The notes under the pieces were generated by a model, which worked only from the letters and a program-made list of their open reading frames with translations, ran no database searches and was not told where the DNA came from. A stretch of 64,000 nt of DNA from a virus (taxonomy: Duplodnaviria; Caudoviricetes). The stretch spans positions 4,280-68,279 of the IMG/VR virus record IMGVR_UViG_3300005680_000114; one strand, written 5' to 3'. Shown here one piece after another: positions 57,210-57,867 of the stretch (position 1 is the stretch's first letter; every line of letters starts with the position of its first letter). Position numbers and translations under genes: made by a program.

Positions 57210-57539
57210 ATGATTACGTTTGTCGTCGGCCGTCGGTACGTGTTTCACAATGAGATCGGTGTTCACGTCGGCACGTTTGTAGGCGCTGATCATCGCGTTC
57301 GGCACGGCCTTATTTTCAAGGACGTCGTTCGCATCGTGGAAGTTGACGAACAACCGCAAGTGACGATCAACGCCAGTAAAGTCATCGACGCCGAGTCCTG
57401 GCATCAAACCGTCAAGCTGATCGGCGATGTCGAAGCGTCAAACCCCGGCATCATCCGAACGGTTCTCAAGATGCTGAACGACCGGGAGTCGGTCACTGTT
57501 TACCGTGCCAACGCACGGAAGGTTTTGGGAGCGAAGTAA
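57210..57539 (+). CDS. Hypothetical protein (Sm/SH3-like beta fold?)
   Basis: CAGGA RBS; its stop codon overlaps the first array repeat. Confidence 0.6.
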   Translation: MITFVVGRRYVFHNEIGVHVGTFVGADHRVRHGLIFKDVVRIVEVDEQPQVTINASKVIDAESWHQTVKLIGDVEASNPGIIRTVLKMLNDRESVTVYRANARKVLGAK

Positions 57540-57867
57540 GCCGCGGAGGTAGAGCGTCTGTAGACACAGAGCGTAACCGAACCAGATGAGTTTCTGCCAG
57601 AGTGGAGTGCAGTCGTCGATCCCGAGTGTCTGTCAGCGCCGAGCGTAGCCGTAAAGAACGAGTGTCTGACGTTTCGGAGTGCAGCCGGTAAATGTGAGTG
57701 ATCTGCTGACTACGAGCGAAGCCGGGTTAGTCGAGTGTCTGATCACGGAGAGCGTAGCCGGTGAAGAAGAGTGTCTGCACAAAGAGAGCGTAGCCGATGA
57801 ATGGGAGTGTTCTGTTGAGACAGAGCGAAGCCGCCAAGCGGGAGAGTCTGAAAGAAACGAGCGAATT
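57538..57867 (+). repeat. TIGR-like dual-spacer tandem array (9 units, 36-nt period)
   Basis: Alternating GAGYG(T/C/A)AGCCG and GAGTGTCTG repeats separated by 18 unique 8-nt spacers. Long repeats start at 57569, 57605, 57641, 57677, 57714, 57750, 57786, 57823 and 57859. Confidence 0.9.

What the first reader, a model, noticed from the sequence alone, without database searches (positions are those of the whole stretch)
57538..57867. TIGR-like dual-spacer guide-RNA array with its own repeat sequence
Nine units have consensus AGCCG-[A8]-GAGTG-TCTG-[B8]-GAGCG-W. The period is 36 nt (two units are 37 nt because of one extra base in the loop repeat). Spacer pairs A/B: cggaggta/tagacaca, aaccagat/ccagagtg, tcgatccc/tcagcgcc, taaagaac/acgtttcg, gtaaatgt/ctgactac, ggttagtc/atcacgga, gtgaagaa/cacaaaga, atgaatgg/ttgagaca, ccaagcgg/aaagaaac. 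All 18 spacers are unique, preceded by G (CCG, TCG or CTG) and followed by GAG. The array runs from the upstream stop codon to the ATG of a Nop-domain gene. Established knowledge: TIGR arrays (TIGR-Tas, described 2025, common in phages) give ~36-nt guides with two ~9-nt spacers that pair with opposite DNA strands, with no PAM. Here N8 plus one invariant G fits that geometry. Inference: nine programmed guides; whether this repeat type is a new subfamily needs comparison with known arrays.
Basis: partly seen in the sequence, partly recalled or inferred. Interest (0 to 1): 0.95.

Follow-up and report, generated by a model that had tools for sequence, protein, structure and literature searches.

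The report
Phage TIGR-TasA guide-RNA array
This is a real array of nine two-part guide RNAs sitting directly in front of its nuclease-free partner protein (TasA) in a complete temperate phage genome. It is an ordinary new member of the TIGR-Tas family of RNA-guided DNA binders described in 2025, with a slightly unusual repeat spacing and no target that I could find.

Summary
Window 57538-57867 holds nine 36/37-nt units: an 11-nt edge repeat, an 8-nt spacer, a 9-nt loop repeat (10 nt in units 5 and 8) and a second 8-nt spacer.

The gene at 57868-58764 is a TasA:
- NCBIfam TIGR_Tas_endo scores 176 bits (cut-off 100).
- The ten best fold matches are all TasR/TasH structures.
- It has no nuclease domain.
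- Y260 and H270 match the Tyr/His dyad that processes guide RNAs in SpTasH.

Seven of eight viral relatives and about half of the bacterial ones carry 36-nt dual-repeat arrays beside tas. Five closer relatives (56-85% identical) share this 11+9 repeat type with different spacers. More distant relatives, and the tested Salicola phage system, use 10+10. The repeat is therefore a clade-specific variant of the conserved edge core, not a new class.

No target was found in the phage's own genome or in related loci, and scans of the viral collection gave only chance-like hits. No RNA data exist. This scan has already confirmed TIGR-Tas loci in at least 19 other genomes. Verdict: genuine, a new member of a known kind, of modest interest.

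The parts
57008..57035 (+). Sigma-70-like promoter match (10 of 12) upstream of the ORF that precedes the array. It is a possible start of a transcript covering the ORF, the array and tasA.
   Evidence: This is a consensus match only: 3 sites were found in the region against 1.6 expected, and the host's promoter type is unknown.
57210..57539 (+). Upstream ORF of unknown function: 109 aa from the ATG, with the frame open from a GTG at 57048. Its stop codon overlaps the first half edge repeat.
   Evidence: No Pfam or NCBIfam hit. No similarity to the CsrA gene that precedes the array in L011.
57538..57867 (+). Dual-repeat TIGR array: nine tigRNA units plus a terminal truncated edge repeat.
57539..57573 (+). 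Unit 1: 5' half edge, spacer A 57544-57551, loop repeat, spacer B 57561-57568, 3' half edge.
57575..57609 (+). Unit 2: spacer A 57580-57587, spacer B 57597-57604. Both repeats are one base off the consensus.
57611..57645 (+). Unit 3: spacer A 57616-57623, spacer B 57633-57640.
57647..57681 (+). Unit 4: spacer A 57652-57659, spacer B 57669-57676.
57683..57718 (+). Unit 5: spacer A 57688-57695, spacer B 57706-57713. The loop repeat is 10 nt, so the unit is 37 nt.
57720..57754 (+). Unit 6: spacer A 57725-57732, spacer B 57742-57749.
57756..57790 (+). Unit 7: spacer A 57761-57768, spacer B 57778-57785.
57792..57827 (+). Unit 8: spacer A 57797-57804, spacer B 57815-57822. The loop repeat is 10 nt, so the unit is 37 nt.
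57829..57863 (+). Unit 9: spacer A 57834-57841, spacer B 57851-57858. Its 3' half edge is the truncated last repeat, 4 nt before the tasA ATG.
57868..58764 (+). tasA: a 298-aa nuclease-less TIGR-associated Nop-domain protein (P0001).
   Evidence: NCBIfam NF052498 at 1.1e-51, 175.9 bits against a cut-off of 100. PDB 9mty TasR at 2e-10. AlphaFold2 model with pLDDT 89.6. Foldseek ranks 1-10 are all TasR/TasH chains. No HNH or RuvC domain.
57895..58137 (+). Residues 10-90: helices predicted to form the coiled-coil dimer interface.
   Evidence: Secondary structure. The homodimer model's interface covers residues 17-84.
58645..58647 (+). Tyr260, which aligns with Tyr289 of SpTasH (a catalytic residue for pre-tigRNA processing).
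   Evidence: for the tail alignment, for near-invariance in 50 homologues, and PMC13421893 for the SpTasH residues.
58675..58677 (+). His270, which aligns with His296 of SpTasH.

Best explanation
A functional dual-repeat TIGR-TasA locus of a temperate tailed phage.

**Proposed mechanism**
1. The + strand is transcribed through the upstream ORF, the array and tasA.
2. A TasA dimer binds each unit through the box D (AG) and box C (CCG in the edge, CUG in the loop) motifs that flank both spacers.
3. TasA cuts the precursor in the middle of each edge repeat with its Tyr260/His270 dyad.
4. This gives nine guides of about 36 nt, each laid out as half edge, N8+G, loop, N8+G, half edge.
5. Each guide directs the dimer to an 18-bp site that reads spacer A, two central bases (GC if the constant G pairs), then the reverse complement of spacer B. 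One spacer pairs with each DNA strand, and no PAM is needed.
6. Because TasA has no nuclease domain, the outcome is binding and bending of DNA, that is, blocking transcription or replication of the target, not cleavage.

**Shown here:** the array anatomy, the protein family and fold, conservation of the array-tas pairing, and the presence of the dyad residues.

**Inferred from published work on relatives:** transcription, processing, the dimer-RNA complex, target geometry and repression. The natural targets and the benefit to the phage are unknown.
For: **Array**
- Nine units, with 0.89 identity in repeats against 0.26 in spacers. The unit pattern occurs 7 times against 0.38 expected.
- Both repeats begin GAG and end C-Y-G. 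This is the edge/loop pseudo-symmetry required by a symmetric Tas dimer (for the rule, for the sequence).
- The array RNA has no stable fold (z = +1.2), as expected for a dual-repeat array rather than a stem-loop array.

**Protein**
- NCBIfam TIGR_Tas_endo equivalog scores 175.9 bits against a cut-off of 100.
- PDB sequence hits: TasR 9mty at 2e-10 and TasH at 0.009.
- The AlphaFold2 model has pLDDT 89.6, and its ten best Foldseek matches are TasR/TasH chains (E 3e-7 to 6e-5, probability 1.00). IS110-family recombinases follow.
- Y260 and H270 align with SpTasH Y289 and H296. Both are at least 90% conserved in 50 homologues.
- A homodimer model scored 0.62 against a best control of 0.12. That mark was reached by 20 of 30 proteins solved as pairs of one chain and 1 of 23 solved as single chains. 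The runs agree in at least 53% of contacts, and the partner's pLDDT is at least 79. The interface is residues 17-84. Because TasR and TasH dimers are solved, this shows likeness and may come from memory.

**Relatives**
- 7 of 8 IMG/VR loci and 15 of 29 loci in bacterial genomes have 35-38-nt periodic dual-repeat arrays beside tas, on the same strand.
- Five closer loci (L010, L014, L088, L089, L090; 56-85% Tas identity) have the same 11+9 repeats with unrelated spacers.

**Published function of relatives**
- FpTasA binds 36-nt tigRNAs (PMC12045711).
- MbTasA represses transcription in a guide-dependent way (bioRxiv 10.64898/2026.09.09.750476).
Against: - There is no RNA evidence: no listed sequencing run holding this DNA is on record as RNA.
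- No natural target was found.
- The loop linker between box D and box C is 3 nt and the edge linker 5 nt, not the canonical 4+4. Two units are 37 nt. Whether these units are bound and processed as well as canonical ones is untested.
- The Y/H assignment rests on a pairwise alignment of a flexible, low-confidence loop (pLDDT below 50 at residues 263-269). The family profile did not extend to that loop in SpTasH.
- The host is unknown, so promoter and translation signals cannot be judged.
Confidence: 0.88

Rival explanations
1. A decaying or silent TIGR remnant: the array and gene are recognisable but no longer make working guides.
For: Several repeats deviate by one base, and two loops carry an extra base. 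No target and no RNA evidence were found. The array is short (9 units), and unlike L088-L090 there is no second array downstream of tasA.
Against: Repeat identity is 0.89 while spacers are at the random level. The tasA frame is intact, and all 18 invariant positions of the family alignment are present by construction of that alignment. The dyad residues are present. The same repeat type is kept in five relatives with different spacers, which argues for selection on the repeats.
Confidence: 0.07
2. An IS110-type RNA-guided transposase with a non-coding guide region. Pfam, PHROGs and older annotation would suggest this.
For: Pfam Transposase_20 hit at 2.5e-5. PHROG 4285 is labelled 'transposase', 2.6e-31. 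Distant fold matches to IS621 and ISCro4.
Against: The protein is 298 aa with no N-terminal DEDD/RuvC domain. The NCBIfam IS110 model scores 23 bits against a cut-off of 140, whereas the Tas model scores 176 against 100. IS110 elements carry one two-loop bridge RNA, not a tandem array of nine units.
Confidence: 0.02
3. A DNA-level repeat (iterons or an operator array for a DNA-binding protein) or a coding tandem repeat, not an RNA.
For: The array lies in the early region near recombination and replication genes. A frame is open from 57679 into tasA.
Against: The two 37-nt units break any reading frame. Conservation comes in blocks of 9-11 nt and 8 nt with no 3-nt periodicity. Homologues start at or near the ATG at 57868. 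The repeat orientation relative to tas is fixed in every relative. The edge core matches experimentally sequenced tigRNA ends of SpTasH and TaTasR.
Confidence: 0.02

Closest known systems
SpTIGR-TasH of Salicola phage CGphi29 (NC_020844; PDB 9w03, 9w04, 21kl)
   Same: A phage-borne dual-repeat array with a 36-nt unit and 8 variable bases plus one constant base per spacer. Box D is AG. The edge core (AGCG then AGCC) is the same (array read at L015:15339-15767; synthetic tigRNAs). The Tyr/His processing dyad aligns.
   Different: TasH carries an N-terminal HNH nuclease and cuts DNA, whereas this protein has no nuclease. The Sp repeats are 10+10 nt with box C CCA. Here they are 11+9 nt with box C CCG or CUG. 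The constant spacer base is A in Sp and G here. The array is downstream of the gene in Sp and upstream here. Protein identity is only about 20% over the Nop core.
Nuclease-less TasA systems (FpTasA of Flavonifractor plautii; MbTasA of a Minisyncoccota bacterium)
   Same: A solo Nop-domain effector. FpTasA binds 36-nt tigRNAs from a dual-repeat array. MbTasA binds target DNA and represses transcription in a guide-dependent, reversible way.
   Different: I did not compare those sequences with this one directly. FpTIGR has 9 variable bases per spacer. The cited section does not state the array type of MbTasA (dual-repeat or stem-loop).
TaTasR (Thermoproteota archaeon; PDB 9mty)
   Same: It is the best sequence and fold match in the PDB. 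It has the same edge core around the processing site and the same guide architecture. Its guide/target pair fixes the geometry as spacer A followed by the reverse complement of spacer B.
   Different: It has an active RuvC domain, box D UG, box C CCA and fully variable 9-nt spacers. It has Trp where this protein has Tyr260 (alignment).
IS110-family bridge-RNA recombinases (IS621, ISCro4)
   Same: The same Nop-like RNA-binding domain and two-part guide logic.
   Different: They have a DEDD/RuvC catalytic domain and a catalytic Ser-containing C-terminal domain, carry a single bridge RNA, and move DNA. None of these features is present here.
CRISPR arrays
   Same: Tandem repeats interleaved with unique spacers next to an effector gene. 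The transcript is processed into guides.
   Different: There are two alternating repeats of 9-11 nt instead of one of 25-36 nt. Each guide has two 8-9-nt spacers that read opposite strands. There are no cas genes and no PAM.

Membership tests
TIGR-Tas (dual-repeat class) | Effector with a Tas-type Nop domain. | tested here: met
   NCBIfam NF052498 scores 175.9 bits against a cut-off of 100. 9mty hit at 2e-10. Foldseek top 10 are all TasR/TasH.
TIGR-Tas (dual-repeat class) | Array of two alternating short repeats (8-12 nt) with two short spacers per ~36-nt unit. | tested here: met
   11-nt and 9-nt repeats, 8 variable bases per spacer, period 36/37 over nine units.
TIGR-Tas (dual-repeat class) | Box D at the start and box C at the end of both repeats, the same in edge and loop. 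| tested here: met
   Both repeats start GAG and end C-Y-G. The rule is stated. The G of AG can pair with the first C of box C in both repeats.
TIGR-Tas (dual-repeat class) | Canonical spacing: 14-nt box C-spacer-box D intervals separated by 4-nt linkers (TIGRFinder seed model). | tested here: not met
   Linkers are 5 nt (edge) and 3 nt (loop), with 4 nt in two loops (model). The sum stays at 36. This is a detection-model feature, not a definition of the family. Relatives L003 and L005 meet it.
TIGR-Tas (dual-repeat class) | Edge repeat distinguishable by an extra base pair. The array starts with a 5'-truncated edge and ends with a 3'-truncated edge. | tested here: met
   The edge linker ends are C and G, the loop linker ends T and T. 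The array starts with the 3' half and ends with the 5' half of the 11-nt repeat, here and in L010, L014 and L088-L090.
TIGR-Tas (dual-repeat class) | Array adjacent to tas, with the association conserved among homologues. | tested here: met
   7 of 8 IMG/VR loci, 15 of 29 GTDB loci and 5 of 5 close relatives.
TIGR-Tas (dual-repeat class) | C-terminal Tyr/His processing loop. | tested here: met
   Y260 and H270 align with SpTasH Y289 and H296 and are at least 90% conserved. The alignment covers a flexible loop, so confidence is moderate.
TIGR-Tas (dual-repeat class) | Rho-independent terminator after the array (typical, according to Faure et al.). | tested here: not met
   No terminator-like site lies between the array and tasA. 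Here the array lies upstream of the gene and runs into its start codon.
TIGR-Tas (dual-repeat class) | Transcription and processing into ~36-nt tigRNAs bound by Tas. | not testable with these tools
   No RNA run is listed for this DNA.
TIGR-Tas (dual-repeat class) | Guide-dependent binding of DNA whose two strands match spacers A and B. | not testable with these tools
   Needs biochemistry. Computational target searches gave nothing above chance.
TasA subtype | No HNH or RuvC nuclease domain. | tested here: met
   The protein is 298 aa. Pfam gives only the Transposase_20 core hit. The model is all-helical, with the coiled coil at the N-terminus.
IS110 transposase | N-terminal DEDD/RuvC domain and a full-length match to the family model. 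| tested here: not met
   NF033542 scores 23 bits against a cut-off of 140, and only residues 83-136 match.
CRISPR-Cas | A single repeat of 25-36 nt and cas genes nearby. | tested here: not met
   The repeats are 9-11 nt and of two kinds. Neighbours are an integrase, an HTH regulator, an exonuclease and an ATPase.

The most novel reading that the evidence does not exclude
In this clade the array may double as a regulatory leader. The last half edge repeat lies 4 nt before the start codon. The same 12-mer (half edge plus start codon) precedes tasA here and precedes a different gene after the downstream array of L090. Arrays also begin inside the stop codon of the preceding gene. TasA binding or cutting at the terminal repeat would then set the translation of the next gene: autoregulation of tasA here, and control of a neighbour in L090. 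Meanwhile the guides would act as an RNA-guided repressor set in the immunity/recombination early region of a temperate phage, for example against competing phages or host loci.
Probability: 0.15. Interest if true: 0.55.

Novelty: new member of a known kind. Interest (0 to 1): 0.3.

Why it matters
TIGR-Tas was described in 2025. It is being developed as a compact, PAM-free DNA-targeting tool, and the natural role of the nuclease-less TasA form is still open.

This locus adds three things:
- A TasA system in a complete 68-kb temperate phage genome. It sits between the integrase/repressor region and the recombination genes.
- Evidence that the 36-nt unit is kept even when one base moves from the loop to the edge repeat, at the known processing site.
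- A small clade (six loci) in which that variant can be studied.

It does not change what is known about the mechanism. The family is already large (20,096 published loci), NCBI has a curated model that names the protein, and this scan has confirmed many other cases.

Tried and rejected
**Self-targets.** I scanned all nine guides against the whole 68,279-bp phage genome, in both possible geometries and with gaps of 0-3. No site had 2 or fewer mismatches. The 50 sites with 3 mismatches compare with about 37 expected, and some of them are the array itself.

**Targets in fetched loci.** Across 43 loci (238 kb) there was no hit with 1 or fewer mismatches in the experimentally supported geometry. 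Mispaired-spacer controls gave as many hits with 2 or fewer mismatches as the real guides.

**One exact hit in the other geometry.** Guide 3 matches 16 of 16 bases in the geometry reverse complement of A, two bases, B, at L006:6701-6718, inside a UvrD-like helicase ORF. The chance of such a hit is about 0.006 for the set searched. That geometry contradicts the TaTasR guide/target pair and the reported 3' overhangs, so I treat it as chance.

**Whole viral collection.** I scanned for guide 3 (16 specified bases). The 43 hits lie in unrelated contexts, many of them inside GC-rich coding sequence, with no dominant cluster. I stopped there because 16-mers have no specificity at this scale, as Xu et al. 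also state.

**Guides of relatives against this phage.** I scanned 64 guides from five relatives. None had 1 or fewer mismatches, and 5 sites had 2 mismatches against about 2.3 expected.

**Shared spacers.** The clade arrays share none with this window beyond chance.

**Expression.** No RNA holder is listed for this DNA. The only holder is a bioreactor-sludge DNA run that may be the source sample.

**Host and close kin.** The large terminase found no relative in IMG/VR. The closest named protein comes from a Planctomycetes MAG. The host remains unknown.

**Published list.** I looked for this protein or these repeats in the stored supplements of Faure et al. and did not find them, but Table S1 was cut when stored.

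**Other checks.** Rfam gave nothing relevant in 56900-58000. The family profile did not reach the C-terminal loop of SpTasH, so I mapped the dyad with a pairwise tail alignment instead. I rejected the other note's 'csrA' label for the upstream ORF: it has no Pfam or NCBIfam hit and no similarity to the CsrA gene of L011.

Full report
**What is in the sequence**

Window 57538-57867 (+ strand) is a tandem array of nine units. Each unit reads:
- a 5-nt half edge;
- 8 variable bases (spacer A);
- a 9-nt loop repeat (consensus GAGTGTCTG, with one extra base in units 5 and 8);
- 8 variable bases (spacer B);
- a 5-nt half edge.

One variable base joins consecutive units, so the full edge repeat is 11 nt (GAGCG-W-AGCCG). 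The period is 36 nt, or 37 nt after units 5 and 8.

Pairwise identity is 0.89 in repeat columns and 0.26-0.27 in spacer columns. A unit-length pattern matches 7 times, all in the array, against 0.38 expected, and 0 of 100 shuffles reach that count. TRF reports the same period.

The array begins inside the TAA stop codon of the upstream ORF and ends with a truncated edge repeat 4 nt before the ATG at 57868. As RNA it folds no better than shuffled sequence (z = +1.2). It is therefore a dual-repeat array, not a hairpin array.

**The neighbouring gene**

The ORF 57868-58764 (P0001, 298 aa) is named by the curated NCBIfam equivalog 'TIGR-Tas system RNA-guided endonuclease'. It scores 175.9 bits against a cut-off of 100, while the IS110 transposase model scores 23 against 140.

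Other evidence agrees:
- The best PDB sequence match is TasR (9mty, 2e-10), followed by TasH.
- An AlphaFold2 model built from 50 homologues has mean pLDDT 89.6.
- Its ten best Foldseek matches are all TasR or TasH chains, and IS110-family recombinases follow.
- Pfam sees only the Transposase_20 core, and PHROG 4285 calls the family 'transposase'. Older annotation would therefore mislabel it.
- There is no HNH or RuvC domain, so it is a TasA.

Tyr260 and His270 align with Tyr289 and His296 of SpTasH. Those are the catalytic residues for pre-tigRNA processing (PMC13421893). I fixed that numbering by reading the annotated gene in NC_020844. Both positions are at least 90% conserved in the family alignment.

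A homodimer model passed its controls: score 0.62 against a best control of 0.12. That mark was reached by 20 of 30 proteins solved as pairs of one chain and 1 of 23 solved as single chains. The runs agree in at least 53% of contacts, and the partner's pLDDT is at least 79. The symmetric interface covers residues 17-84, which is the coiled-coil region. Because TasR and TasH dimers are solved, this shows likeness rather than independent proof.

**Register, motifs and how the repeat compares with known ones**

Following the convention of Faure et al. for SpTIGR (an N8A spacer before an AG box D), each spacer here is N8 plus a constant G. Box D is AG. Box C is CCG in the edge and CUG in the loop. 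Both repeats thus start and end alike, as a symmetric Tas dimer requires.

The 11-nt repeat is the edge, for two reasons:
- Its linker ends are complementary while the loop's are not, which is the TIGRFinder criterion.
- The arrays here and in five relatives start with its 3' half and end with its 5' half.

The edge core is the same as in the sequenced guides of SpTasH and TaTasR, whose mature RNAs end ...GCG and begin AGCC.... This clade has one extra, variable base exactly at that junction and one base fewer in the loop linker (3 nt instead of 4). The mature guide should therefore still be 36 nt.

More distant relatives (38-48% identical) and SpTIGR itself use 10+10-nt repeats. The 'own repeat sequence' is therefore a clade-specific spacing variant of a conserved design.

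**Relatives**

The protein family is large, with 2,329 hits at E of 0.001 or better among the candidates scored.
- Seven of eight IMG/VR loci carry 36-nt dual-repeat arrays within 3 kb of tas, on the same strand.
- Fifteen of 29 loci in bacterial genomes from many phyla do so by a crude periodicity test, although many of those contigs are short.
- The closest relatives have the same 11+9 repeats with unrelated spacers. They are L010-L013 (85% identical), L014 (69%), L089 (62%), L088 (60%) and L090 (56%).

**Context**

The window is part of a 68,279-bp IMG/VR virus record rated 100% complete, from bioreactor sludge. The window carries a large terminase and tail genes. Just upstream of the locus lie a tyrosine integrase (54937-55842, minus strand) and an HTH regulator (55871-56395). 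Downstream lie a RecE-like PDDEXK exonuclease (58789-59940), a PHROG 3657 protein and an AAA ATPase. The phage is temperate, and the TIGR-TasA module sits at the start of the early recombination operon.

A promoter-like site lies at 57008-57035, and no terminator separates the array from tasA. The likeliest arrangement is therefore one transcript with the array as the leader of tasA. This is inference.

**Mechanism**

By analogy with the tested systems, a TasA dimer binds each unit at its box C/D motifs. It cuts the precursor within the edge repeats using the Tyr/His dyad and keeps a 36-nt guide.

The guide/target pair of TaTasR in Table S3 of Faure et al. shows that the target strand reads spacer A followed directly by the reverse complement of spacer B. 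This is also the only geometry compatible with the reported 3' overhangs. For this array the predicted sites are therefore spacer A, two central bases (GC if the constant G pairs), then the reverse complement of spacer B.

With no nuclease, the expected outcome is guide-dependent DNA binding and repression, as shown for MbTasA. Only the anatomy, the family membership and the conservation are shown here. Expression, processing, binding and biological role are inferred.

**Targets**

I found none.
- The phage does not target itself: no site has 2 or fewer mismatches in either geometry with gaps 0-3.
- Related loci give nothing above mispaired controls in the supported geometry.
- A scan of the whole viral collection for one guide gave 43 scattered hits, many of them inside GC-rich coding sequence.
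- The 64 guides of five relatives do not target this phage.

This matches the published view that natural targets cannot yet be assigned because the spacers are so short.

**Verdict**

This is a genuine but ordinary new member of the dual-repeat TIGR-TasA kind. The family has 20,096 published loci and 6,685 annotated arrays, and NCBI has a curated model for the protein. This scan has already confirmed TIGR-Tas loci in at least 19 other genomes.

The modest points of interest are:
- the 11+9 spacing variant with an inserted base at the processing site;
- the way arrays in this clade abut stop and start codons;
- the complete temperate-phage context.

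Noticed in passing
L009:2860-5160 (IMGVR_UViG_3300025073_000048): A TasA homologue encoded as one 766-aa ORF. The Tas match is split by an in-frame insert with Hint, LAGLIDADG and intein-splicing Pfam hits, so this is an intein inside a tasA gene. 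No array was seen within 3 kb, and a (CTG)n run lies just upstream.
   Followed up: partly
window 57859-57870 and L090 about 4145-4158: The same 12-mer (truncated edge repeat, two bases, ATG) ends the array and starts the next gene in both loci. That gene is tasA here and a DUF7694 gene in L090. In L010 the ATG follows the last half edge by one base. This suggests the terminal repeat is part of the translation start context.
   Followed up: partly
window 57537-57543; L088:3913-3920, L089:3916-3923, L090:3898-3905: Arrays begin inside the stop codon of the preceding gene. In the window, TAA is followed by the rest of the half edge. In the three relatives, the TAG or TGA of tasA overlaps the half edge.
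   Followed up: no
window 57538-57867 against the whole window: Spacers are 47% G+C and A-rich (A 0.36), while the phage is 61% G+C. Spacers in L010 and L014 are likewise less G+C-rich than their loci, closer to even base use. The guides were therefore probably not copied from the phage's own kind of DNA.
   Followed up: partly
L006:6701-6718: Guide 3 matches exactly, 16 of 16 bases, in the geometry not supported by experiment. The site is inside a UvrD-like helicase gene of a distantly related phage contig that has its own TIGR-TasA locus. The chance is about 0.006 for the DNA searched, and I judged it coincidental.
   Followed up: yes
window 58789-61082; L010:1642-4008; L090:597-2701; L088:5355-6422: In this clade tasA often lies next to phage recombination genes of unrelated types: RecE-like PDDEXK here, DnaQ-like exonuclease plus RecT in L010, YqaJ plus RecT in L090 and on the P0005 contig, and PDDEXK_1 in L088. 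Only 7 of 45 loci showed such genes by tblastn. This may simply reflect position in the early operon.
   Followed up: partly
window 57210-57539: Another first-stage note calls the ORF before the array csrA. It has no Pfam or NCBIfam hit and no similarity to the true CsrA gene that precedes the array in L011 and L012.
   Followed up: yes
window 58654, 59059 and 13 other sites: Another first-stage note reports an 18-bp palindromic operator scattered over the genome, including inside tasA. I did not examine it. None of the nine guides matches any site in the genome with 2 or fewer mismatches.
   Followed up: no
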